The translations under genes were made by a program, and so were the position numbers. Positions 1 to 13,618 of a stretch of DNA of 64,000 nt are shown one piece after another (the first letter of the stretch is position 1; every line of letters starts with the position of its first letter). The notes under the pieces are model-generated. The model had not been told where the DNA came from, ran no database searches, and saw nothing but the letters and a program-made list of their open reading frames with translations. The DNA is from Spirochaetia bacterium. GTDB lineage: Bacteria; Spirochaetota; Spirochaetia; CADAEX01. The stretch covers positions 2,176,001 to 2,240,000 of the forward strand of contig OY759746.1 of the NCBI GenBank assembly GCA_963662795.1. The letters run 5' to 3'.

Positions 1-35
1 AATATGAAGAAAAGGAATTATTGGCAGATGAATAA
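1..35 (+). CDS. 3' end of YefM/Phd-type antitoxin (partial, runs off window)
   Basis: Frame from nt 3 reads YEEKELLADE*. Its TAA (33-35) overlaps the start of the toxin ORF (ATGAATAA), the usual TA coupling. Confidence 0.6.
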   Translation, partial: YEEKELLADE

Positions 36-288
36 GCTGTTCACAGATGAGGCATGGAAAGACTATTTATATTGGTTTGAAAATGATAGGAAGCAATTAA
101 AAAAGATTAATGATCTTATAAAAGAAATTGAAAGATCACCATTTGCTGGAATAGGAAAACCAGAATCTCTAAAATATAATTTGAAAGGATTTTGGTCAAG
201 AAGGATTGATCATGAACATAGAATAGTGTATCAAGTCGAAGGTTCTCAGCTAAGAATAATATCTTTAAAATATCATTACGAAAAATAA
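28..288 (+). CDS. yoeB: Txe/YoeB family toxin (RelE superfamily)
   Basis: AWKDYLYW...KKINDLIKEIERSPFAGIGKPESLKYNLKGFWSRRIDHEHRIVY is the Txe/YoeB signature. Likely start is ATG 28. Confidence 0.93.
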   Translation: MNKLFTDEAWKDYLYWFENDRKQLKKINDLIKEIERSPFAGIGKPESLKYNLKGFWSRRIDHEHRIVYQVEGSQLRIISLKYHYEK

Positions 289-322
289 TAAAGTAAATAA
301 TTAAGAGAAAAAAATGGAAGAA

Positions 323-354
323 GTCCGGCCTTGGCGTTGCCGTGCGGCCTGGAC
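323..354. repeat. Conserved pre-attC hairpin B, copy 1
   Basis: GTCCGGCC-TTGGCGTTGCCGTGC-GGCCTGGAC; recurs at 1313, 2706 and 3776. Confidence 0.9.
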
Positions 355-372
355 AAGAAGGGGACGTACTGC

Positions 373-544
373 TGCTAACAGCGGGTAAGAAGCTGCGCTC
401 GGAGTACCTCGCTTGGGCTTCGCCATATTTTGCTTTTATGAAATCAGAACAATTAATATTTCATCATTTCAGATGTGACAAAAGCTGTCAAAATGATTGA
501 AAAGTATTAATCGCAAAACATCTTTTACCCGCGGGACGTTATGC
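373..544 (+). other. attC-like integron recombination site 1
   Basis: R'' TGCTAAC 373-379 and R' GTTATGC 538-544. Inner arms GCGGGTAAGA and TCTTTTACCCGC, with spacer GGGAC before GTT. Confidence 0.85.
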
Positions 545-568
545 TCAATACCAGCCGCAAGAGGAAAT

Positions 569-593
569 CGCCCGGACCTCCGGCCAACGGGCG
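569..593. repeat. Conserved post-attC hairpin A, copy 1
   Basis: CGCCCG-GACCTCCGGCCAA-CGGGCG; near-identical at 1542, 2969 and 4018. Confidence 0.9.
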
Positions 594-665
594 AGAGAGA
601 AAGAGAAACAATAAGTATAGATTATACTGTAAAAGATAAGAAATGCTTATAGAAAATGAAGGATC

Positions 666-699
666 TTGACAATAATATGTAATAACAATATAATTACAT
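666..699 (+). promoter_or_regulatory. Sigma70 promoter with overlapping palindromic operator for mazEF-like cassette
   Basis: TTGACA (666-671)-N17-TATAAT (689-694). Inverted repeat ATGTAAT...ATTACAT spans 677-699. Confidence 0.85.
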
Positions 700-712
700 T
701 AGAGGTAGAGAA

Positions 713-961
713 ATGATAGTTTCTGTTGTTTCCATTGGCAATTCAAAAGGAATACGTCTTCCAAAAGCATTATTAAATCAACTAAAAATATCAGATAAAC
801 TGGATTTAGAAGTAGAAGATCAGAAAATAATACTTAAACCTGTATCTAATAATCCAAGAGCAGGATGGAATTTGGCTTTTAAAGATATGCATAAAAAAAA
901 TGAAGATCAATTATTGATAAATGAAAGTATTGATTCTAAGGATTTCAAATGGGAATGGTAA
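713..961 (+). CDS. AbrB/MazE/SpoVT family antitoxin
   Basis: N-terminal IGNSKGIRLPK swapped-hairpin motif; GAGG RBS; overlaps the toxin. Confidence 0.92.
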   Translation: MIVSVVSIGNSKGIRLPKALLNQLKISDKLDLEVEDQKIILKPVSNNPRAGWNLAFKDMHKKNEDQLLINESIDSKDFKWEW

Positions 962-1278
962 TAAATCAGTATGAAGTTTATCTGGTTGAGCTTGATCCAA
1001 CAAAGGGACATGAAATACAAAAAACAAGACCATGTTTAATTATTTCCCCCGATGAAATGAATCATAATATAAGTACTGTTATTATTGCTCCAATGACAAC
1101 AAAATCACATAATTATCCGACACGTGTAGAATTAAAGTTTTTAGGAAAAAAAGGATGGATAGTTTTAGATCAGATAAGAACAATAGACAAACAGAGATTA
1201 TTAAAAAAAGTTGGTAAGATTGAAATTAAAGAAATTATAAAAGTTAAACAAATCATTAAAGAAATGTTGGTTGATTGA
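955..1278 (+). CDS. PemK/MazF family toxin (mRNA interferase)
   Basis: LDPTKGHEIQKTRPCLIISPDEMN...DQIRTIDKQRL. Confidence 0.93.
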   Translation: MVINQYEVYLVELDPTKGHEIQKTRPCLIISPDEMNHNISTVIIAPMTTKSHNYPTRVELKFLGKKGWIVLDQIRTIDKQRLLKKVGKIEIKEIIKVKQIIKEMLVD

Positions 1279-1312
1279 TAAAAAAAAATAAAATAATAAT
1301 GCATGAGAATAA

Positions 1313-1344
1313 GTCCGGCCTTGGCGTTGCCGTGCGGCCTGGAC
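1313..1344. repeat. Conserved pre-attC hairpin B, copy 2
   Basis: Identical to 323-354. Confidence 0.9.
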
Positions 1345-1364
1345 AAGAAGCGGCTGGTACTGGA

Positions 1365-1518
1365 GCATAACAGCGAATGACCGGTTCCGGCTGTTTCTAA
1401 GGAAACAGCCTCCACCCAAATTGCCGAAATAATACATGTTAAGAATAATGGAATAGAGTATAAACTTTTGGAGTGAAAAACACCATCGGCAACTTCGGTC
1501 ATTCGCGAGACGTTATAC
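1365..1518 (+). other. attC-like site 2
   Basis: R'' GCATAAC 1365-1371 and R' GTTATAC 1512-1518. Arms GCGAATGACCG and CGGTCATTCGC are perfectly complementary; spacer GAGAC. Confidence 0.88.
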
Positions 1519-1541
1519 GAAAAACCACCCCAAGAGAAAAC

Positions 1542-1566
1542 CGCCCGGACCTCCGGCCCACGGGCG
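1542..1566. repeat. Conserved post-attC hairpin A, copy 2
   Basis: CGCCCGGACCTCCGGCCCACGGGCG. Confidence 0.9.
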
Positions 1567-1640
1567 AGGATCAAGACAAAGTAAAAGTGATTGATTATTC
1601 ATTTCAAAATATTAACAGTAACCAGAAAGAGAGGGGTTTT

Positions 1641-1979
1641 ATGAAGAGTTTTCCTGATTTTATGAAAAGTGAATTAAATAAAATTGATCAAAGTCAGCAA
1701 AACACGAAAGATATTGTAGGATATTATTATACTGGAAAAGACGGTTCTCAAATAGCTTTTTAGGAGTGTTACTCAGACAGAGAATCAATAAAACACAAGC
1801 ACGATCTTGATGAGCATATAGTTTGTGTAAGCGGAGAATACATTGCATATTTTACTGAAGAAAAATATATACTACATGCTGGAGATGAAATACATATACC
1901 AAAAAAAACTGAGCAGTGGGGGAAAAGTATAAAAGGAACTAGAACAATTCATTTTTTTGGTGGGAAAAGGATAAAATAA
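1641..1979 (+). pseudogene. Cupin-domain protein with in-frame nonsense codon
   Basis: GAGGGG RBS, then MKSFPDFM...DGSQIAF*ECYSDRESIKHKHDLDEHIVCVSGEY...AGDEIHIPK...TIHFFGGKRIK*. The single TAG is at 1761-1763 (probably from TGG). Confidence 0.75.
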
Positions 1980-2015
1980 AGAAATAGAACTGGGAAACCA
2001 TAAAGTGATTAAGAC

Positions 2016-2053
2016 TTGACATATACGGCAATAATAAATATACTATACGTATA
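2016..2053 (+). promoter_or_regulatory. Sigma70 promoter and palindromic operator of the second TA pair
   Basis: TTGACA (2016-2021)-N17-TATACT (2039-2044); palindrome TATACGTATA at 2044-2053. Confidence 0.8.
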
Positions 2054-2063
2054 GAGGTATAGT

Positions 2064-2303
2064 ATGAACAGGAAGTTGACATTAAGCCTTGATCCTAAAA
2101 TAATTGATTTTGCGCATGATTTTTCAAAAAAATCAAATCAGCCTATTTCGAAAATAGTAGAGAATTACTTTTTAGAATTAAAAAATAAAAATACTTCTAA
2201 ATATGCAAAAGATGTAGAAGATTTGTATGGAATTCTTGAAGGAATAGAAATACCCGATAAAAAAGAAATGAGAAAAGCATTTTATGAAAAAAATATTAAT
2301 TGA
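2064..2303 (+). CDS. DUF6364-like (RHH) antitoxin
   Basis: KLTLSLD...AHDFSK...ISKIVENYF; overlaps the PIN toxin gene. Confidence 0.8.
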   Translation: MNRKLTLSLDPKIIDFAHDFSKKSNQPISKIVENYFLELKNKNTSKYAKDVEDLYGILEGIEIPDKKEMRKAFYEKNIN

Positions 2304-2700
2304 TTTAAATGTAATTCTTGATTTCTTAAATAAAAGAGAAGGACATGAAAAAGCTGCTGATATATTAAATATGTGTTCGTCTGGAAAAGCAGTAGGCTAT
2401 ATCTGTGCTCATGAAATAACAACACTTTCCTATTTTCTTGGAAAAATAATTAAAGAAAAAACGAAAAGAAACAAGATAATAAATGGAATACTGGAGTTAT
2501 TAAATATAATATCAATAGATAAGAAAATATTAAAAGAAGCATTATTGTCAAAAATTGATGATTATGAAGATGCGGTAATTGATGAGTCTGCTAAAAAAGA
2601 AAAAATAGAATATATAATAACAAGAGATTTAAAAGATTTTAAAAATGCAAGCATTAAGGCAATTACACCAGAAGAATATTTAACCAGATCAATATCATAA
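2284..2700 (+). CDS. PIN-domain (VapC-like) toxin
   Basis: ILIDLNVILDFL...DYEDAV...IITRDLKDF acidic PIN motifs. Confidence 0.92.
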   Translation: MKKILIDLNVILDFLNKREGHEKAADILNMCSSGKAVGYICAHEITTLSYFLGKIIKEKTKRNKIINGILELLNIISIDKKILKEALLSKIDDYEDAVIDESAKKEKIEYIITRDLKDFKNASIKAITPEEYLTRSIS

Positions 2701-2705
2701 AGAAC

Positions 2706-2734
2706 CCAAGCCTTGGCGGTGCCGTGCGGCTTGG
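2706..2734. repeat. Conserved pre-attC hairpin B, copy 3 (covariant stem)
   Basis: CCAAGCC-TTGGCGGTGCCGTGC-GGCTTGG. Confidence 0.88.
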
Positions 2735-2752
2735 AAGAAGGGGTGGTTCATC

Positions 2753-2944
2753 GTATAACAGCGATTATTTCGCTGCGCTCCCTATGGTCGCTTGGGCTCC
2801 TGCCAGTTGAGCTGGCAGATCGCCATATTTTGTTTTCATAAAACCGGAACAACATGTGTTTTATGCTCTTCAAGTTTGTAAAAACCAAATAAAAGTATTT
2901 TAGAGTTTAGTCACAAAACATCGAATAATCGCGAGACGTTCTCC
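2753..2944 (+). other. attC-like site 3
   Basis: R'' GTATAAC 2753-2759 and R' GTTCTCC 2938-2944. Arms GCGATTATTTCG and CGAATAATCGC; spacer GAGAC. Confidence 0.85.
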
Positions 2945-2968
2945 GAAATACCGCCCCAGGAGAAGGAT

Positions 2969-2993
2969 CGCCCGGACCTCCGGCCCACGGGCG
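2969..2993. repeat. Conserved post-attC hairpin A, copy 3
   Basis: Identical to 1542-1566. Confidence 0.9.
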
Positions 2994-3064
2994 AGGATAA
3001 GTTAAGAAAATAATACAACAAATGAGTGTGAAAATTGTTAAATGATTATTAAATAGTTGACAAC

Positions 3065-3093
3065 TTGACAATTAAAATAATTACAAATATAAT
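3065..3093 (+). promoter_or_regulatory. Sigma70 promoter, probably producing a leaderless mRNA
   Basis: TTGACA (3065-3070)-N17-TATAAT (3088-3093). ATG is at 3100 and there is no SD sequence. Confidence 0.8.
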
Positions 3094-3099
3094 TAATAT

Positions 3100-3339
3100 A
3101 TGAAAACAATGCAAATAGGAGATTTTAAAGCTCAATTCTCAAAGGTTCTCGAAGAAGTAAAACACGGAGAGGAAATAATAATATCTTATGGTAAACAGAA
3201 GAAAAATGTTGCAGTAATAATTCCATATGAAGAATACAAAGAAAAAAATAGAATTAAATTGGGCTTGTTGAAAGATAAAGCAAGTTATAAATTTAATAAT
3301 GATTATGAAATGACTGAAGAGGAGCTTGTAAGTCTTTGA
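3100..3339 (+). CDS. Phd/YefM family antitoxin
   Basis: MKTMQIGDFKAQFSKVLEEVKHGEEIIIS...VAVIIP. Confidence 0.9.
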   Translation: MKTMQIGDFKAQFSKVLEEVKHGEEIIISYGKQKKNVAVIIPYEEYKEKNRIKLGLLKDKASYKFNNDYEMTEEELVSL

Positions 3340-3733
3340 AATATCTCCTTGATACACATTATTTAATCTGGAGCATAATTGACCCGGATAAAATAGATAA
3401 AAAGAGGAAAAAGATATTATTGGATGTGAATACAGAGAAATATATAAGTCAGATAAGCTTTTGGGAAATATCAATAAAATATTCGCTTGGGAAATTAGAA
3501 TTAAAAGGAATTACTCCTGAAGAATTACTAGAGGCAGCAATAAAATCAGGATTTCAAATATTGGAATTAGAAACAAAAATACTTGCACATCATACAAACT
3601 ACCGAAAAATCCCAACCACAAAGATCCTTTTGACCGTTTAATAATTTGGGAATGTATTTGCAATGATTATATTTTATTAACAGCAGATGAAAAAGTAAAA
3701 GAATATAAAGAAAACGGTTTGAAAATAGTATAG
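3336..3733 (+). pseudogene. VapC/PIN toxin, frameshifted
   Basis: YLLDTHYLIW...ISFWEISIKYSLGKL. After ~3587 the conserved HKDPFDRLIIWE...LLTADE tail continues in another frame to TAG at 3731-3733. Confidence 0.85.
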
Positions 3734-3775
3734 ATAAAATACAATCTACAAATAAATAAATGAAAATAAGAAAGC

Positions 3776-3806
3776 CCCAAGCCTTGGCGGTGCCGTGCGG
3801 CTTGGG
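3776..3806. repeat. Conserved pre-attC hairpin B, copy 4
   Basis: CCCAAGCC-TTGGCGGTGCCGTGC-GGCTTGGG. Confidence 0.88.
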
Positions 3807-3823
3807 AGAAGGGGCGGTACTTC

Positions 3824-3994
3824 CGAGAACAGCGGTTAAAGCGCTTCGCTCGCAGTAGCTCACTTGGGCTCCTGGCTGTTGAGCAGCCAGTTCGCCAAAC
3901 ATCGCAGTTTAGAATAAAAGTATAAGAATCAAGAAATTTGTAAAATAAGCAAATCATAATTTGCGATGCTTCGCTTAACCGCGGGACGTTATCG
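3824..3994 (+). other. attC-like site 4
   Basis: R'' CGAGAAC 3824-3830 and R' GTTATCG 3988-3994. Arms GCGGTTAAAGCG and CGCTTAACCGC; spacer GGGAC. Confidence 0.85.
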
Positions 3995-4017
3995 GCAATG
4001 GCTGGGCAAGAGGAAAT

Positions 4018-4042
4018 CGCCCGGACCTCCGGCCCACGGGCG
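4018..4042. repeat. Conserved post-attC hairpin A, copy 4
   Basis: Identical to 1542-1566. Confidence 0.9.
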
Positions 4043-4114
4043 AAGAATAAGAAATATATATAAAAAAAGAGTATAATAAATGTAAATTAATTCTTGGAAG
4101 GAAAAAGAAAGAAA

Positions 4115-4550
4115 ATGACAAACATAATTATTTTTCTCATGGGGGAGGTCCACTTCCAATACTTGGAGAGCCAAGTCATAAAGAAATGATATCATTTATG
4201 AAAAAACTTCCTGAAGAACTTGATAAACCGAAAGCAATAATAGTAATAAGTGCACATTGGGAGGAAGAAGTACCAACAATAATTGGAAATAATAATCCCT
4301 CGCTTTATTATGATTATTATGGATTTCCCAAGGAAGCATATGAAATAAAATATCCGGCCCATGGAAATGTTGAGTTTGCAAAACAAATTAAACAATTATT
4401 CGAGAAAAACAATATACAGGCAGTGATTGATGATAAGCGTGGATTGGATCATGGAGTCTTTATACCATTATTACTGATGTATCCGGAAGCAGATATACCA
4501 GTAATCCAGATATCATTGGTAAAAGGATTAAGGCCGAAGGAGCATTTATC
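4115..4550 (+). pseudogene. LigB/DODA-type class III extradiol dioxygenase, 5' frameshift and 3' truncation
   Basis: SHGGGPLP is out of frame with ATG 4115. ISAHWEE, YYDYYGFP and RGLDHGVFIPL are present. Similarity stops at ~4550, where attC5 begins. Confidence 0.85.
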
Positions 4551-4712
4551 AGAGGATAAGGCGCATCGCTCCCTATGGTCGCTTGGCCTACGGCATATTT
4601 TGCTATCATTAAAACAGTTCAAATTATGTTTTACTCTATTTAAATATATTCCCAAGACTATTACGTTGAAGAAGATTATAGCAAAACATCGCTTATCCTC
4701 GGGACGTTATGC
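4550..4712 (+). other. attC-like site 5, lacking R'' and hairpin B
   Basis: Arms GAGGATAAG and CTTATCCTC, spacer GGGAC, R' GTTATGC 4706-4712. Internal CGCTCCCTATGGTCGCTTGG is shared with attC3. Confidence 0.8.
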
Positions 4713-4724
4713 TCAATACCAGCC

Positions 4725-6068
4725 TGTGCAATCAGGACATAGGTAACACTTTTTATCACGACATAGGTAACACCACACATGTAAATCTTTTAGTACAATC
4801 CTATTTAGGAGGACTGAGAGATGCCATGGAAGGAGACCAATGTTATGGATCAGAAAAAAGAATTTGTTCTGGAAGCACTCAAGGGAACAATGAATTTTAC
4901 CAGTCTGTGTGCGAAATATTGTATCAGTCCAAAGACTGGCTACAAGTGGAAAGAGAGGTTTCTTGAGCAAGGCTTTGAAGGACTTGAGGAATTATCAAGA
5001 AAACCAAAAACAAGCCCAGAGAGTTTATCAGAAGAAGAGATACTCTCTATAATTAAAATCAAACATCAAAAGAAGAATTGGGGAGCTAAAAAGATCAGAG
5101 AGATTTACGCTAATAAATATCCTGATAAGAGGCTGCCCTCAGTGAGTACATTTAATCGATTTTTTCAGAAGGCTGGATTAGCCAAGAAGCGTCGAAAGAA
5201 GAGAACAGCTGAAGGTATTAGAATTGAAAATCGTGTAGAAGCAACACATCCAAATCATGTATGGACGGTGGATTTTAAAGGATGGTGGTATACCCCTAAC
5301 AGAGAACGAGTAAATCCGCTTATAGTACGAGATGATCATTCCAAGTACATTTTAACAATTAAAACTCTGGATAAGGGTGATACAGCAAGTGTTTACAAGG
5401 AATTCGACCAATTATTCAGGGAATACGGTCTTCCAGAGGTAATTAGATCAGATAATGGCCCTCCTTTTGCGAATATGCGAAGTTTATTCGGTCTGACAAG
5501 ATTATCAGTTTGGTGGCTATCATTAGGGATTAAGTTGGACAGAATAGAACCAGCATCACCTTATCAGAACGGAGCACATGAACGGATGCATTTGGATATG
5601 GCGAATGAATTGGAAGGCCAGATTTATGGAGATATCAGGTATCATCAGAAGATGTTTGAAAAGTGGCGTGTAGAATATAATGAAGAGCGACCGCATGAAT
5701 CACTGAATATGAAAACACCCTCTACAGTATATAAAGTATCAGAGCAGGAATATTATGGGGACTTTGTGGAGTTTGCATATCCGATAAATTACAGAAAACG
5801 TTTTGTAAATAACCGAGGATTTGTCAGCTTTAAAGGTGTTCGCTATTTTGTTGGGAATCCTTTTGGGGGTTATAACATAGGCATACATCCCACTGAAACA
5901 GGGCAGCTGGATGTGTGGTTCGCAGACTCTCTTCTTGGGTATTTTGACCAGGAAAGTTTGTTGCTGGTACCGGAAAAGAAGTATACACTTATGAAAAGAA
6001 AAAGAAGAAAAGTGTTACCGATGTCGTGACACAAATCCTTTACCGATGTCGTGAAACTGGACCCAACA
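4725..6068 (+). mobile_element. IS481 family insertion sequence
   Basis: TGT...ACA ends. Subterminal repeats GACATAGGTAACAC occur twice on the left and TTACCGATGTCGTGA twice on the right. Confidence 0.85.
4821..6029 (+). CDS. IS481 family DDE transposase
   Basis: MPWKET..., HTH, WTVDFKG, IRSDNGPPF, QNGAHERMH, YNEERPHESL. Confidence 0.93.
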   Translation: MPWKETNVMDQKKEFVLEALKGTMNFTSLCAKYCISPKTGYKWKERFLEQGFEGLEELSRKPKTSPESLSEEEILSIIKIKHQKKNWGAKKIREIYANKYPDKRLPSVSTFNRFFQKAGLAKKRRKKRTAEGIRIENRVEATHPNHVWTVDFKGWWYTPNRERVNPLIVRDDHSKYILTIKTLDKGDTASVYKEFDQLFREYGLPEVIRSDNGPPFANMRSLFGLTRLSVWWLSLGIKLDRIEPASPYQNGAHERMHLDMANELEGQIYGDIRYHQKMFEKWRVEYNEERPHESLNMKTPSTVYKVSEQEYYGDFVEFAYPINYRKRFVNNRGFVSFKGVRYFVGNPFGGYNIGIHPTETGQLDVWFADSLLGYFDQESLLLVPEKKYTLMKRKRRKVLPMS

Positions 6069-9173: not shown

Positions 9174-10448
9174 CATAGGTGTCCAAAACAATCATAACAG
9201 CTCCAGTTGAAGATTGAAACTAGTTTTTTTAGTCTGTTCTGAAGGCGGTTTATTGAGAACAGTCCAGATATCTTTTCTTGATGTCAGTATTACAGGAATC
9301 AATTTCATCAGTGAAAAATGAGTCCATTTTCTACATGAAAACATTTTAAGGAACTGAAGTAACAGAAAAGCAATTAGGGCAATCCAGATTTGTGTCATTA
9401 CAGCATTTCTGGAAGTACCAAAGAATTTCTTGATCTTGAGGTTCTGTTTGATAGTTTTAAAAAATATTTCAATCTGCCATCTGTCTTTGTAAACAGCAGC
9501 AATTGTTGTTGGAGACCAAAGGAAATTATTGGTAAGAATTACAATATATTTACCGGTTTCAGGATCTCTGCTTCTGATTCGTCTTAATTTTAACGGGCAT
9601 TTTTTACTGGTGTAAAATCCTTTCATTTCTATGATCTGATCAGATGTAATATTTTTAAAGGAGGAGGTATCTTTTCTCTGGACAATTTTATAATCAGCAT
9701 TCTTTTTTAACCTGGTAACAAAATAAATACCGGTATTACAATAATTTGCGAATAATTTAAAGTCAGTATAACCACGATCAAACGTGATGACATCGCCTTT
9801 GTTGAAAGCCATTTTTTTCAAGGAATTGACTTCATGTGTTTTTGCAGTTGTAACTGATACAAAAGCTGGAATATATCCACTATGGTCAAGTTTTACATTA
9901 AGTTTTATTCCGCCTTTATATTTTCTGAAATTTGCCCATGGAAAGAGATTTAAACACAAGTCAATAGTTGATGCATCAACACTGTAAAGAGGATTTTTAA
10001 ATTTATGTTTATGCGCTCTCTTCATGGATAATATCTTATCAAGAAGATCAGTGAAAACATTTTCATAAACTTCACAGCTTCTATTATTATTTGCGTAAGA
10101 TAATGTAGAGCGTTTTACCTTTTTTACACCCATATGATAAAGGTGGTTACTGATTGATTCAAAAGAGTTTTCAATGCCTCTTAACCCGGTCTGTCCTGAA
10201 AGTTGTGCAAAGAGCATGGAGACAAAATGCTGCCAACAGGTAAAACCTTTGGAAGCAAAGTCCCCTTTATGTTTTTTTACAGATTTTTCAAATTCATGTC
10301 TCGGAATTATTTGTAGAATTTGTTTTAAAATGGTATTATTGTAACTCATTGCCTGATTTCCTTTTCCTGTAAAGAATTAGCCGTCCAAGCTTAATTCATT
10401 ATAGTTGGGATTTCAGGCAATTAATAGTCCTTGTTTTGGACACCTATG
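9174..10448 (-). mobile_element. IS4 family element, copy 1 (1275 bp)
   Basis: 18-bp IR CATAGGTGTCCAAAACAA at both ends; 9-bp TSD ATTTATTAT at 9165-9173 and 10449-10457. Confidence 0.95.
9192..10349 (-). CDS. IS4 family transposase
   Basis: DASTIDL, FDRGY and YKDRWQIEIFFK (YREK-type motif). Confidence 0.95.
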   Translation of the reverse strand: MSYNNTILKQILQIIPRHEFEKSVKKHKGDFASKGFTCWQHFVSMLFAQLSGQTGLRGIENSFESISNHLYHMGVKKVKRSTLSYANNNRSCEVYENVFTDLLDKILSMKRAHKHKFKNPLYSVDASTIDLCLNLFPWANFRKYKGGIKLNVKLDHSGYIPAFVSVTTAKTHEVNSLKKMAFNKGDVITFDRGYTDFKLFANYCNTGIYFVTRLKKNADYKIVQRKDTSSFKNITSDQIIEMKGFYTSKKCPLKLRRIRSRDPETGKYIVILTNNFLWSPTTIAAVYKDRWQIEIFFKTIKQNLKIKKFFGTSRNAVMTQIWIALIAFLLLQFLKMFSCRKWTHFSLMKLIPVILTSRKDIWTVLNKPPSEQTKKTSFNLQLELL

Positions 10449-10539
10449 ATTTATTATATTTTCAAAGTTTTTATTTATCTCAAGAATATCTTTGTCAAGC
10501 AGATAGAGAATAGCAATTTAACATTAAGGATTTTTAATA

Positions 10540-11787
10540 ATGCCTAAAGAAATATCCGTAAATCTTGGTAATATGCTTTTATCGTTGTCTGAAATTATTG
10601 ACATGGCAAATCCATATATATCAAATCATCAACAACGTACAGCATTAATCGCAATGCGATTGGCAAATACAATGGATCTTTCACAGAACTCTCTTGAAAA
10701 AATATTTGCATCTGCTCTTTTACATGATATTGGAGCAATAACGATTGAAGAAAAAACGCTATTACATGAAAATCATGAAAAAGATATATTTATTCATTGT
10801 AATAGAGGTGCTGCCCTTGTATCTGGTTTACCGTGGTTTGACCGATTTTCCTTCATAATTAAAAACCATCATACAAACTGGATCGATATTAATAATTCAA
10901 TCGATAATGATGATGTTCTTTCTGCTCAAATAATTCATGTGGCGGATTTTATTGAAAGATCAGTAAACCGAAAAAAATGTATCCTTCATCAAAATGATGA
11001 TATTATAAAAACAGTAAATAAACTGAAATACATTCAGATCAATGAAAAAGTTATTGATCATTTTAACGATTTAGCCAAAAAAGAAGAATTCTGGTTGGAA
11101 CTTACCTCAAACAGAATTTATTCTAATCTGCTACATAACGGCCCATTTATTACAATAAAAGTTTCAATTGATGAAATATCGCAACTAGCTGATCTTTTTA
11201 CTAGAATAATTGATTTTAAATCATCTTTTACTTCTACGCATACAACCGGTGTTGAGGCTTGTACAGAGAAGATTTCGAAAATATTCGGATTTTCCGATAG
11301 GGAAGTAAAACAATTGAAAATTGCAGGAGCATTCCATGATATAGGTAAATTAGTTATTCCTAGAAATATTTTAAATAAGCCCGCAACTCTAACAAAAAAG
11401 GAAACAGCATTAATGCGATCACATGCTTATTATACCTTTATTGCATTAAATTCCATAAAAGGATTGCAAAAAATTGCTGTTTGGGCTGCATATCATCATG
11501 AAAAAAACGATGGATCTGGATATCCATTCCATTATAAAGAACAAGAACTTGATTCTGGTTCAAGAATTATTGCAGTGGCAGACATTTTTACGGCATTGAC
11601 AGAAGATAGACCTTATAGAAAAGGTTTGAAAAAAAATGAAATATATTCGATTTTTAAAGAACATTTGGATTTAAAACAACAGGATGAAAACATAGTCAGC
11701 ATACTTTTTGATAATTATGATGAGATTAGCTGCCATGTAAAGAAAAAGCAAAAAACAGCGACAAAACTTTATAATCGTATTTTTTAA
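10540..11787 (+). CDS. Tandem HD / HD-GYP domain phosphodiesterase (c-di-GMP)
   Basis: Two HD motifs (LHDIG, FHDIGK); HHEKNDGSGYP and VADIFTALTEDRPYR in the second domain. Confidence 0.9.
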   Translation: MPKEISVNLGNMLLSLSEIIDMANPYISNHQQRTALIAMRLANTMDLSQNSLEKIFASALLHDIGAITIEEKTLLHENHEKDIFIHCNRGAALVSGLPWFDRFSFIIKNHHTNWIDINNSIDNDDVLSAQIIHVADFIERSVNRKKCILHQNDDIIKTVNKLKYIQINEKVIDHFNDLAKKEEFWLELTSNRIYSNLLHNGPFITIKVSIDEISQLADLFTRIIDFKSSFTSTHTTGVEACTEKISKIFGFSDREVKQLKIAGAFHDIGKLVIPRNILNKPATLTKKETALMRSHAYYTFIALNSIKGLQKIAVWAAYHHEKNDGSGYPFHYKEQELDSGSRIIAVADIFTALTEDRPYRKGLKKNEIYSIFKEHLDLKQQDENIVSILFDNYDEISCHVKKKQKTATKLYNRIF

Positions 11788-11830
11788 AAAATAATTAAAA
11801 TATATTTATTACTAAAAGGAAATATAAAAT

Positions 11831-13495
11831 ATGGAACTAAATAAATCTAATATCTATGTTGGCAAAGTATTTTTAATAGTGTTGTTATCAAATTTGGGCT
11901 TATATTTTTTCAAAATGGATACTAGCGAAAAATCATCTTTGCTATTTATGATTCCGATAATTGTTTCTGTAATAGTATCAGTTATTATTGTTCATTTAAA
12001 TAACAAATTAAATAAAAATCTTCTTATTTTCAAATCTCTGTTGGTGGATTTTATAGCAACTATTAATAAAAATGCCAAACCAGCTAATATTATTTCAGAT
12101 TTTACAGATTATTCAATGCAATGTAAAAGCAGTAAAAACAACCTTTTAGATATTTTTAATGCGAATAACGAACATTCTCTTGATATGGCTTTAACAATGA
12201 AGGATTCTGTTTATCATACTTCATATATAATAGGGAAGATCAATAGGATTTCGGAAGAAATTGATTCTTTGAGTTCAAGTATTAATCAATCTTCCGCAGC
12301 AATTAATCAGATAACACAGACTGTTGTTAATTTTGTAAAGCAAATCGAGAATCAGTCAAGTGCCGTAGTTCAAACATCGACGGCTGTTGAAGAAATGAAT
12401 GCTTCAATAAAAAATATTGACAAAATTACACATTCAAAAAAAGATAAATCAGAAGACCTTCTGGAGCTTACTAAAAAGGGCAAATTACAGATGATCTCGA
12501 CAAACAATATAGTTGAAAAAATAAGTAAAAATCTTGAATCGGTCAATTCAATAATTAATGTCATTAATGATATAGCCGCCCAGACCAATCTCCTTTCCAT
12601 GAATGCTGCAATTGAGGCTGCTCATGCAGGGGTTGCTGGTAAAGGTTTTGCTGTTGTAGCAGATGAGATAAGAAAACTAGCAGAATCATCTGCTAGCAAT
12701 TCAAAACATATTGCAAAAGACTTAAAAGTAATTGTTGAAAGCATAAAGGAAGTAACTACTTCAAGCAGTCAAAGTCTTAGTTATTATGATGAAATACAAA
12801 TAGAAGCGTCAGCTTTTGTTGATGCACTTGACGAAATAATAAATGCAACAAAGGAGCTTAGTATAGGAAGCAATGAAATTGTAAATGCAACAACTTCTTT
12901 GGTTGAAGTAACAGAGAATATCAGAACTGGTTCCCATGAAATGGAAACAGGAGCTAATGAAATTAATCTTGCTATACATAGCATTATGGAAGCTGGTAAT
13001 AAAAACAGGAATAACATCAACGAAATTACGGAAATAACTTCTGAAATAAATCTAATATTTCAAAAGCTTACAAATTCAAGTATTGAAAGCAATATGATAA
13101 TAGACGGTGCAATATCGGTAGTTTCCATGACTGAATCATTGTCAGAATATAAAATCAATATCCCAACAGTAATAATGCAGCATATCCTTTGGCTTATTAA
13201 AGTAAGACTTTTTCTTGATGGCAGACTAAATCTTGCTGCTTCTGAAATAACTGATCATACGCGTTGTGATCTTGGAAAATGGTTACTATCAAATGTTCAG
13301 GATGAAATGAAAAATGATAAGTCTATTCAAACACTTGAAGATAAGCATATAAAATTACATTTATATATTAAGAAAATAATTGAAAACAAAGAGCAAAAAA
13401 CAAAAGATGCTCTTGAAAATAATTTTACAGAATTAATTAATATTTCTGAAAAGATCGTAGAAATTCTAATCCAATTAAACAAAAAGTTGAATTGA
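11831..13495 (+). CDS. Methyl-accepting chemotaxis protein with C-terminal CZB domain
   Basis: Two N-terminal TMs; [20 protein letters not shown]...[14 protein letters not shown]; C-terminal H.LW...[10 protein letters not shown]...H..LH. Confidence 0.9.
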
Positions 13496-13597
13496 ATTTT
13501 CATTCAGATTTATTCTGCAAAGGTGTTAAATATAATCTCTTGATGGTAAAGAAATTAGCTTATCATTAGGAACTCATAGTTTTTTAATAAAAGAAAT

Positions 13598-13618
13598 CAT
13601 AGGTGTCCAAAACAATCA
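13598..13618. repeat. Solo end of the IS4 element
   Basis: CATAGGTGTCCAAAACAATCA, identical to the first 21 nt of the copies at 9174 and 15873. Confidence 0.9.

What the first reader, a model, noticed from the sequence alone, without database searches (positions are those of the whole stretch)
538..3830. Each cassette has its own ~20-nt terminal inverted repeat, far beyond the 7-bp R box
Seen: three cassettes have complementary ends. Cassette 2 starts GTTATGCTCAATACCAGCCGC (538) and ends GCGGCTGGTACTGGAGCATAAC (1371). Cassette 3 starts GTTATACGAAAAACCACCCC (1512) and ends GGGGTGGTTCATCGTATAAC (2759). Cassette 4 starts GTTCTCCGAAATACCGCCCC (2938) and ends GGGGCGGTACTTCCGAGAAC (3830). The arms differ between cassettes but pair within a cassette, and do not pair well across the same junction. 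All three keep an A/C-containing bubble ~10-11 nt from the crossover. Inference: the long stem exists only in the excised circle. It could bias recombination towards re-integration, act as a cassette identity code, or be a footprint of how cassettes are made. It also shows that the cassettes were shuffled as units cut at G|TT.
Basis: partly seen in the sequence, partly recalled or inferred. Interest (0 to 1): 0.85.

Follow-up and report, generated by a model that had tools for sequence, protein, structure and literature searches.

The report
Cassette-specific 20-bp end stems
Each gene cassette in a giant integron-like array of an uncultured spirochaete has its own pair of about 20 complementary bases at its two ends, a base-pairing signal about three times longer than in classical integrons, and the array is headed by a recombinase that lacks the integron hallmark domain.

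Summary
The window holds the far end of a ~333 kb array of about 190 co-oriented cassettes. In 171 of 181 cassettes the first 20-21 nt (starting GTT) are the reverse complement of the last 20-22 nt (ending AAC). The figure is 51 of 187 for arms across one junction and 9.4% for random pairs. There are 63 distinct arm pairs, and most stem positions show all four Watson-Crick pair types. A conserved A·C mismatch, with or without one extra base, lies at positions 10-11.

The same arms occur in arrays of four related genomes and one more distant Spirochaetia contig. Classical integrons in two sister genomes show only 3-8 nt.

Duplicated cassettes always begin at GAC|GTT. Their identity ends at the next GTT in only 13 of 35 pairs. 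In most of the others it stops at or close to AAC|, so the 133-181 nt inner part of the site is exchanged on its own.

The recombinase at the array head lacks the IntI-specific insert, and the genome's true intI is a pseudogene. Neighbouring cassettes share arm types three times more often than chance, which hints at a partner code. Function is inferred, not shown.

The parts
1..379 (+). Cassette 1, 3' part. yoeB toxin gene 4-288, subterminal hairpin ('L module') 323-354, linker AAGAA, 3' arm 360-379 ending AAC.
   Evidence: Its 5' arm lies upstream of the window at C1:2,174,884 and is complementary.
380..537 (+). Inner part of junction 1 (158 nt). It starts A-L'', has a variable middle, and ends L'-GGGAC. 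This is an independently exchangeable module.
   Evidence: Exchange shown.
538..1371 (+). Cassette 2 (mazE 713-961, mazF/pemK 949-1278). 5' arm 538-558, hairpin 'R module' 569-593, 'L module' 1313-1344, 3' arm 1350-1371.
   Evidence: Own 12/12 consensus promoter at 666-694.
1372..1511 (+). Inner part of junction 2 (140 nt).
1512..2759 (+). Cassette 3 (DUF6364 2064-2303 and PIN 2284-2700). 5' arm 1512-1531, R module 1542-1566, 3' arm 2740-2759.
2760..2937 (+). Inner part of junction 3 (178 nt).
2938..3830 (+). Cassette 4 (phd/yefM 3100-3339 and a PIN gene from 3336 that matches only part of the PIN profile). 5' arm 2938-2957, R module 2969-2993, 3' arm 3811-3830.
   Evidence: Promoter 3065-3093.
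3831..3987 (+). Inner part of junction 4 (157 nt).
3988..4550 (+). Cassette 5 (LigB-type dioxygenase fragment). 5' arm 3988-4007, R module 4018-4042. There is no 3' arm: the cassette is truncated.
4551..4723 (+). Remnant of the last junction. Inner part 4551-4705 has no preceding AAC. GTT at 4706 starts a 5' arm that breaks off after about 18 nt. This is the end of the array, followed by an IS481-family transposase gene at 4821-6029.

Best explanation
The two arms are the halves of the outer part of each cassette's own recombination hairpin. In this system the crossover (GAC|GTT) lies about 20 bp above the base of the stem, not at its base. Integration therefore splits the outer stem, leaving one half at each end of the cassette. 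The stem has a 9-bp inner helix that includes GTT/AAC, a conserved A·C mismatch with or without a bulge, and an 8-9-bp outer helix. It is kept by selection for pairing, not for sequence. It is whole only when a cassette's ends meet: in the excised circle, by pairing across the cassette in single-stranded DNA, or between neighbours of one arm type.

Inferred steps. (1) The stem supplies the duplex arm next to the cleavage site for the Xer-like recombinase at the head of the array, which lacks the I2 insert. (2) Because strand swapping needs pairing with the partner's opposite arm, arm type influences which sites recombine. It would favour the cassette's own two ends and partners of the same type. 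(3) The inner 133-181 nt is exchanged separately, for example by a complete two-strand exchange between two folded sites, which swaps the hairpin tips.

Shown: the anatomy, the covariation, the unit boundaries and the conservation. Not shown: any recombination, the strand used, or the enzyme.
For: Within-cassette pairing in 171 of 181 cassettes. Covariation with all four Watson-Crick pair types at 10 of 14 variable positions, 92.5% paired against 51.7% with shuffled partners. About 25 recurrent arm types (45 distinct 5'-arm and 58 distinct 3'-arm 22-mers) argue against one protein reading the sequence.

Complementarity ends sharply at position 20-21. The stem starts exactly at the boundary of the mobile unit. 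Identity between duplicated cassettes starts at GAC|GTT in 35 of 35 pairs, and cross-genome matches start 2-11 nt before GTT. The first cassette after the recombinase gene already carries both arms.

The circle-joined site is more stable than the in-array site, median -12.4 kcal/mol. The bottom strand is more stable than the top in 171 of 181 sites.

The same feature, with the same centre, occurs in G011 (12 credible pairs among 13 hits), G012 (5), G014 (6 hits) and G010 (2) and in L049 (4). Classical integrons of G012 and G011 show only 3-8 consecutive complementary nt in 8 candidate cassettes.

The insert-less recombinase lies at the head of the array, in the same orientation, in G000, G011, L048 and L049. 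The true intI of G000 is a pseudogene far from the array. G014 has no intI above the cut-off.

Arm types cluster along the array: 47 of 186 against 15.8 expected, maximum 28 in 2000 shuffles.
Against: No excised circle, recombination product or enzyme activity was seen. The read data were assembled contigs only and gave nothing decisive. All energies are predictions.

Many unrelated cassettes share identical arms (36 with one 5' arm). Arm pairs may therefore persist by descent of a few cassette 'shells' and not by continuing selection.

The recombinase lacks the I2 element, which the literature treats as the adaptation to hairpin substrates (passages in PMC7790495). Hairpin recombination by it is unproven, and a true IntI acting in trans in the past cannot be excluded.

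Arm-type clustering could also come from block acquisition. Exchange of the inner part shows that the site does not behave as one unit. Duplicate pairs are not independent, because several belong to families of three or four copies.
Confidence: 0.6

Rival explanations
1. Passive footprint. The arms mark how cassette shells were first made, for example by fold-back copying of one arm from the other. They persist only because each cassette moves as a block. The stem has no present role.
For: There are few arm types and many unrelated cargos share them. The same types occur in another genus. G·T pairs are almost absent, 0-4% per position, as expected from copying.
Against: The off-centre A·C mismatch and bulge are kept in nearly all types and in distant arrays; copying would erase them. 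Mismatched arm pairs are rare, 10 of 181 at most, even though conserved flanking hairpins would allow homologous exchange. Arm types cluster without related cargo.
Confidence: 0.15
2. This is an ordinary sedentary integron array cut off from its integrase (a CALIN). It was built by the genome's true IntI, which is now a pseudogene. The arms are just a longer version of the known 9-11-nt pairing, and the Xer-like gene at the head is a bystander.
For: A true intI-like gene exists at C1:412,371-413,302, next to IS genes. AAC/GTT boxes, co-orientation and toxin-antitoxin cargo are integron-like. Pairing beyond the 7-nt boxes, to 9-11 nt, is reported for most cassettes (PMC2727003 passage).
Against: In the sister genus the intact true IntI has its own adjacent array, with different ~110-nt sites and only 3-8 nt of end pairing. 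The arm-type arrays lie elsewhere, and in G011 the arm-type array is headed by the insert-less recombinase. That adjacency recurs in four genomes or contigs. G014 has arm-type cassettes but no intI above the cut-off at 95% completeness.
Confidence: 0.15
3. These are double-stranded modules with terminal inverted repeats, like pdif modules or small transposons. The arms would be protein-binding ends read as duplex DNA.
For: The recombinase is Xer-like. Gene units and inner units alternate between sites of opposite orientation, and both boundaries are breakpoints.
Against: About 25 recurrent arm types covary, which one sequence-reading protein cannot explain. There are no inversions: 160 R modules on the forward strand and 0 on the reverse, and inner parts are not found inverted. 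No target duplications were seen. The upstream inner part does not travel with the cassette (at least 90% identical in 1 of 35 pairs, about the chance level), an asymmetry not expected of symmetric ends.
Confidence: 0.06
4. The pairing acts in RNA. The 5' and 3' arms of each cassette pair in a long array transcript and form a processing or stabilising stalk, like the stems that flank rRNAs.
For: Co-oriented genes and a ~20-bp stem with a bulge. The analogy is recalled, not tested.
Against: G·U-type pairs are almost absent. The conserved mismatch is A·C in the sense strand. The stem begins exactly at the recombination boundary. The toxin-antitoxin cassettes have their own consensus promoters downstream of the 5' arm.
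Confidence: 0.04

Closest known systems
Integron attC sites and the R'/R'' boxes of classical integrons
   Same: Co-oriented cassette array next to a tyrosine recombinase gene. AAC...GTT boxes. An imperfect inner palindrome with unpaired bases. The left cassette boundary is at G|TT. The first bases of a cassette pair with its own far end, reported to extend to 9-11 nt for most cassettes (PMC2727003 passage). The bottom strand is predicted to fold better.
   Different: Pairing is 20-21 nt, with a conserved internal mismatch and a second helix, and in some families a third helix. The boxes are 133-181 nt apart, against 57-142 nt for whole classical sites. Conserved hairpins flank the arms. The inner part is exchanged separately. 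The adjacent recombinase lacks the I2 insert and is co-oriented with the cassettes.
Xer recombinases and Xer-exploiting elements, including pdif module arrays (pdif recalled; Xer/IMEX passage in PMC7790495)
   Same: A recombinase of Xer type without I2. Modules bounded by sites of alternating orientation. Toxin-antitoxin cargo.
   Different: The arms vary and covary instead of matching one binding consensus. There are no inverted modules. The array is strictly one-directional and about 190 units long.
Heterospecific spacers of lox/FRT sites (recalled)
   Same: As an idea only: identity near the crossover decides which sites can recombine, giving compatibility groups.
   Different: Here the supposed code would be a 20-bp stem formed within one strand. 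This is untested.
DUF1874 motif (Weinberg et al. 2017, PMC5737381, passage read)
   Same: A multi-stem element in consecutive intergenic regions, suspected to be a complex attC, with no integrase seen at the head.
   Different: No Rfam family matches window 1-5000, so it is a different sequence and structure.

Membership tests
Integron (classical) | Adjacent integrase of the IntI type with the IntI-specific insert (I2 helix) | tested here: not met
   The head recombinase scores 200.1 bits on TIGR02249 (cut-off 265), in two stretches. It has 25 residues where VchIntIA has 67. It is 41 alignment columns shorter than the true IntI of G011, as are its three orthologues.
Integron (classical) | An intact intI anywhere in the genome | tested here: not met
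   The only full-length TIGR02249 match (C1:412,371-413,302) has a frameshift and internal stops, and lies 1.4 Mb from the array.
Integron (classical) | Recombination sites with inverted R'' (..AAC) and R' (GTT..) boxes around an imperfect palindrome | tested here: met
   187 junctions have AAC, a complementary L''/L' pair and GAC-GTT. Only AAC/GTT are invariant, and the RRRY part of the consensus is not kept.
Integron (classical) | Site length 57-142 nt (range quoted in PMC2727003) | tested here: not met
   133-181 nt lie between the boxes. The arms and flanking hairpins add roughly 120 nt more.
Integron (classical) | A cassette is one unit from G|TT to the next G|TT and carries its whole site | tested here: inconclusive
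   The left boundary is met in 35 of 35 pairs. The right boundary is the next GTT in 13 of 35, and in most other pairs identity is lost within or at the start of the inner part.
Integron (classical) | Co-oriented cassettes starting at an attI next to the integrase gene | tested here: met
   160 forward and 0 reverse R modules. The first GTT lies 152 nt after the stop codon, and the head region is conserved with L048. No attI activity was tested.
Integron (classical) | Recombination of the folded bottom strand, resolved by replication | not testable with these tools
   Only predicted energies are available: the bottom strand is more stable in 171 of 181 sites.
pdif-type module arrays | Modules bounded by conserved XerC/D sites and found in either orientation (definition recalled) | tested here: not met
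   The arms differ between cassettes. No inverted units were found.
IS/MITE-type transposon | The same terminal inverted repeat in all copies, plus a target-site duplication | tested here: not met
   63 distinct arm pairs. The units abut invariant GAC|GTT and AAC|A with no duplication.
Any Rfam family (including attC-like motifs) | Covariance-model match | tested here: not met
   0 matches at E-value up to 1 in window 1-5000.

The most novel reading that the evidence does not exclude
This is a sister or precursor of integrons: a hairpin-site cassette system run by a Xer-like recombinase without the I2 element. Its crossover lies mid-stem, so every cassette carries a private 20-bp stem. That stem would work as an address code for which sites may recombine. 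Second-strand exchange would be allowed, so hairpin tips (the inner 133-181 nt) are swapped between sites.
Probability: 0.3. Interest if true: 0.9.

Novelty: new variant of a known kind. Interest (0 to 1): 0.8.

Why it matters
Integron recombination is thought to depend on the I2 element of IntI, which reads folded sites and blocks second-strand exchange (PMC7790495 passages). Here an array of about 190 cassettes (8.5% of a 3.9 Mb genome), with folded-site anatomy, is headed by a recombinase that lacks I2. Its sites differ from classical attC sites in a way that covaries.

If the stem controls partner choice, or stabilises the excised circle's site, that would be a new way to regulate cassette traffic. 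It could explain how such a large array is built and kept. It would also offer designable, mutually exclusive recombination sites.

It also makes the question of how integrases evolved from Xer-like ancestors testable with a natural system.

Tried and rejected
1. My first R'' search by a fixed motif mis-placed sites. I replaced it with a search for the complement of L'.

2. I tested whether the inner part goes with either flanking arm type. It does not: adjusted mutual information is about 0 for both. This led to the duplicate test.

3. I looked for inner parts in inverted orientation. Only short palindromic hits appeared.

4. Rfam gave no match.

5. I tested the idea that the inner part holds a terminator. 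The scan found 0 terminator-like sites in 1-4800, against 2.7 expected, so I dropped it.

6. I looked for arm-type cassettes next to 38 of the 80 recombinase relatives fetched, those at about 37-54% identity, mostly Bacteroidota. Only isolated pairs turned up, in L055, L065 and L067, and no arrays. That filter is strict. It also missed window cassette 4, and it found only 1 of the 4 L049 pairs.

7. Reads. All runs are kept as assembled contigs. Joints at 375>1368, 375>2756 and 1366>2755 fall at the AAC boundary. One joint in X1, 2940>3828, would skip cassette 4 from GTT to AAC. All have short sides (20-36 letters) and unknown letters between, and no GACGTTAAC exists in the genome. I draw nothing from them, nor from parts without cover.

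8. I tested for pairing between the flanking hairpin modules. It is not separable from their local folds. Only some non-standard families show a clear extra helix.

9. Eight literature searches found no paper describing cassette-specific end pairing of about 20 nt, or cassette arrays headed by an insert-less recombinase. The library holds open-access papers and bioRxiv only. Supplementary files were not opened, and lists of CALIN elements there may include such arrays.

Full report
**What is in the window.**
Window 1-4723 is the far end of one very long array. The window is G000:C1:2,176,001-2,240,000. A hairpin motif seen four times in the window occurs 160 times in the genome, always on the + strand. 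The conserved GAC-GTT anchor occurs 193 times between C1:1.847 and 2.181 Mb. Of these, 187 have a complete junction. The array spans about 333 kb, or 8.5% of the 3.93 Mb genome.

The cargo in the window is mainly toxin-antitoxin pairs: YoeB, MazE/MazF, DUF6364/PIN and Phd/PIN. Three of these cassettes have their own near-consensus promoters. Titles of related records place the organism among uncultured Spirochaetia.

**Anatomy of a junction.**
Reading 5' to 3' on the + strand:
- a subterminal GC-rich hairpin (the 'L module');
- the linker AAGAA;
- a 3' arm of 20-22 nt ending AAC;
- one A;
- an inner part of 133-181 nt in three length classes, whose two ends (L'' and L') pair;
- GRGAC;
- a 5' arm of 20-21 nt starting GTT;
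- the linker AAGAGG...;
- a second hairpin (the 'R module').

Across the array, 171 of 181 cassettes have at least 15 of 18 complementary arm positions beyond GTT/AAC. The two arms of one junction reach this in 51 of 187 cases, and random pairs in 9.4% of 3000. Two of the six worst exceptions are short junctions that my filter missed. The other four have no partner nearby, and two of them carry a repeated ~1.3 kb element.

Pairing ends at position 20 or 21 in 163 of 181 cassettes. There are 63 distinct arm pairs. On distinct rows, the 14 variable stem positions are 92.5% Watson-Crick paired. Shuffled partners give a mean of 51.7% and a maximum of 57.4% in 1000 shuffles. All four pair types occur at 10 of the 14 positions. 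G·T pairs make up only 0-4% per position.

The bubble is systematic. AAT in the 5' arm faces ACT or ACTG in the 3' arm. That is an A·C mismatch on the top strand and G·T on the bottom strand, with one extra base in 83 of 181 cassettes.

A genome-wide scan found 269 such pairs in the array and 12 elsewhere, mostly AT-rich chance matches.

**Generality and a control.**
Arrays in four genomes of the same order show the same cassette-specific arms with the same centre. Some arm types are new and some are shared with G000: G011 has 12 credible pairs among 13 hits, G012 has 5, G014 has 6 hits and G010 has 2. A Spirochaetia contig whose recombinase is only 54% identical (L049) has four such cassettes directly downstream of the gene.

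The sister genus also has intact, bona fide IntI genes scoring 384-400 bits on TIGR02249. Each has its own adjacent array of ~110-nt classical sites. In eight candidate cassettes there, end complementarity runs for only 3-8 nt. Some of the low values may reflect junctions I missed.

The literature already notes that self-pairing extends beyond the 7-nt boxes to 9-11 nt for most cassettes (PMC2727003, passage read). Extension as such is therefore known. What is new is 20-21 nt with a conserved internal mismatch.

**Where the units are cut.**
I compared 35 pairs of duplicated cassettes. They are not all independent, since several families have three or four copies. Both arms and the body are always shared: the 5' arm and the 3' arm are each at least 90% identical in 35 of 35 pairs. 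The upstream inner part is shared in 1 of 35, which is about the chance level. The downstream inner part is shared in 13 of 35.

Printed alignments show identity starting at GAC|GTT. On the right it ends either at the next GAC|GTT or at or within a few bases after AAC|. The second case includes pairs whose bodies are 100% identical. Matches between genomes repeat both right-hand boundaries.

The inner type is independent of both flanking arm types, with adjusted mutual information about 0. So the gene unit (GTT...AAC) and the inner part are separate modules.

One mechanism fits this asymmetry and these exact boundaries. It combines ordinary movement by crossover at GTT with occasional complete two-strand exchange between two folded sites. 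On paper, that exchange swaps the hairpin tips and nothing else. This is my inference and no tool tested it.

**Folding.**
With DNA parameters, the bottom strand of the circle-joined site averages -59.7 kcal/mol, against -50.1 for the site as it stands in the array. The median difference is -12.4. In 122 of 181 sites the joined form is more than 5 kcal/mol more stable, and in 10 the array form is more stable by more than 1. The bottom strand is more stable than the top in 171 of 181 sites, by 4.4 kcal/mol on average. The flanking modules fold as local hairpins in both forms.

Module types are matched within a cassette. A non-standard R module never occurs with a standard L module within a cassette (0 of 27), but does so across junctions in 17 of 27 cases. 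Some families add a further helix beyond the linkers.

**The enzyme.**
A 339-aa tyrosine recombinase gene ends 152 nt before the first cassette and points the same way as the cassettes. It scores just under the cut-offs for XerA (214.5 against 220) and for integron integrase (200.1 against 265, in two stretches). It has 25 residues where VchIntIA has 67.

In an alignment with its orthologues from G011, L048 and L049 and with the true IntI of G011, all four lack 41 columns that the true IntI fills. All four share an N-terminal extension of about 70 residues. They sit at the head of arm-type arrays in G000, G011, L048 and L049.

The only full-length intI-like gene in G000 is a frameshifted pseudogene with internal stops. 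It lies 1.4 Mb away, next to IS genes and an rRNA operon. G014, which is 95% complete, has arm-type cassettes but no intI above the cut-off.

According to passages of PMC7790495, I2 and single-strand recombination are thought to be exclusive to integron integrases, and I2 blocks second-strand exchange. An insert-less enzyme on folded sites would therefore be unusual. It would also fit the tip swapping proposed above.

**A hint of a code.**
Neighbouring cassettes share an arm type in 47 of 186 cases. Shuffled orders give a mean of 15.8 and a maximum of 28 in 2000 shuffles. Only 1 of the 47 pairs have related cargo. This fits recombination favoured between sites of one arm type. It also fits acquisition of blocks of cassettes.

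**Verdict.**
The finding is a real, conserved, covarying DNA structure tied to the cassette boundary. The best reading is a recombination hairpin whose crossover lies mid-stem. The function of the outer stem, the strand used and the enzyme are all inferred. I found no description of this in eight literature searches. Supplementary files were not seen.

Noticed in passing
window 4551-4723 and 4821-6029: The array ends in a damaged junction. An inner part with no preceding AAC is fused to a truncated LigB-type dioxygenase gene. Next come about 18 nt of a 5' arm, then an IS481-family transposase gene.
   Followed up: partly
window 10433-13613: A 3.18 kb element bounded by a perfect inverted repeat of about 21 bp (GTTTTGGACACCTATGATTT...). 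It is unrelated to the cassette arms and is probably a transposon.
   Followed up: no
G000:C1:412,371-413,302 (L032:3371-4302): A bona fide intI-like gene with the IntI-specific region, broken by a frameshift and stops. It lies between IS genes and an rRNA operon and has no array.
   Followed up: partly
G000:C1:2,050,779-2,051,573 and 1,881,758-1,882,309 (minus strand): Two more insert-less Xer-like recombinase genes (37-43% identical to the head enzyme) lie inside the array on the opposite strand. Relatives of this type sit near the arrays of G012 and G010.
   Followed up: no
array cassettes c31, c116, c127, c133, c154, c170, c173: A repeat of about 1.3 kb at 99-100% identity, probably an insertion sequence, interrupts several cassettes. 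Two of these carriers (c154, c173) are among the cassettes with unmatched arms.
   Followed up: no
G000:C1:~2,142,400-2,142,691: One junction has an L'' of one inner type and an L' of another. This is a chimeric inner part that cannot form the usual stem.
   Followed up: no
non-standard cassette ends across the array; first cassette L031:9953-10875: Subterminal hairpins of non-standard cassettes differ in their stems. Many share loop motifs of the CGTCCTG or CCGTCCATGG kind at both cassette ends, which suggests a second protein-binding element.
   Followed up: no
L065:16861-17348 and L055:267-679: Single GTT...AAC units with the same AAT/AGT-type centre occur near distant relatives of the recombinase, in a Flavobacterium and in a Candidatus Buchananbacteria contig. 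The system may reach beyond Spirochaetia.
   Followed up: no
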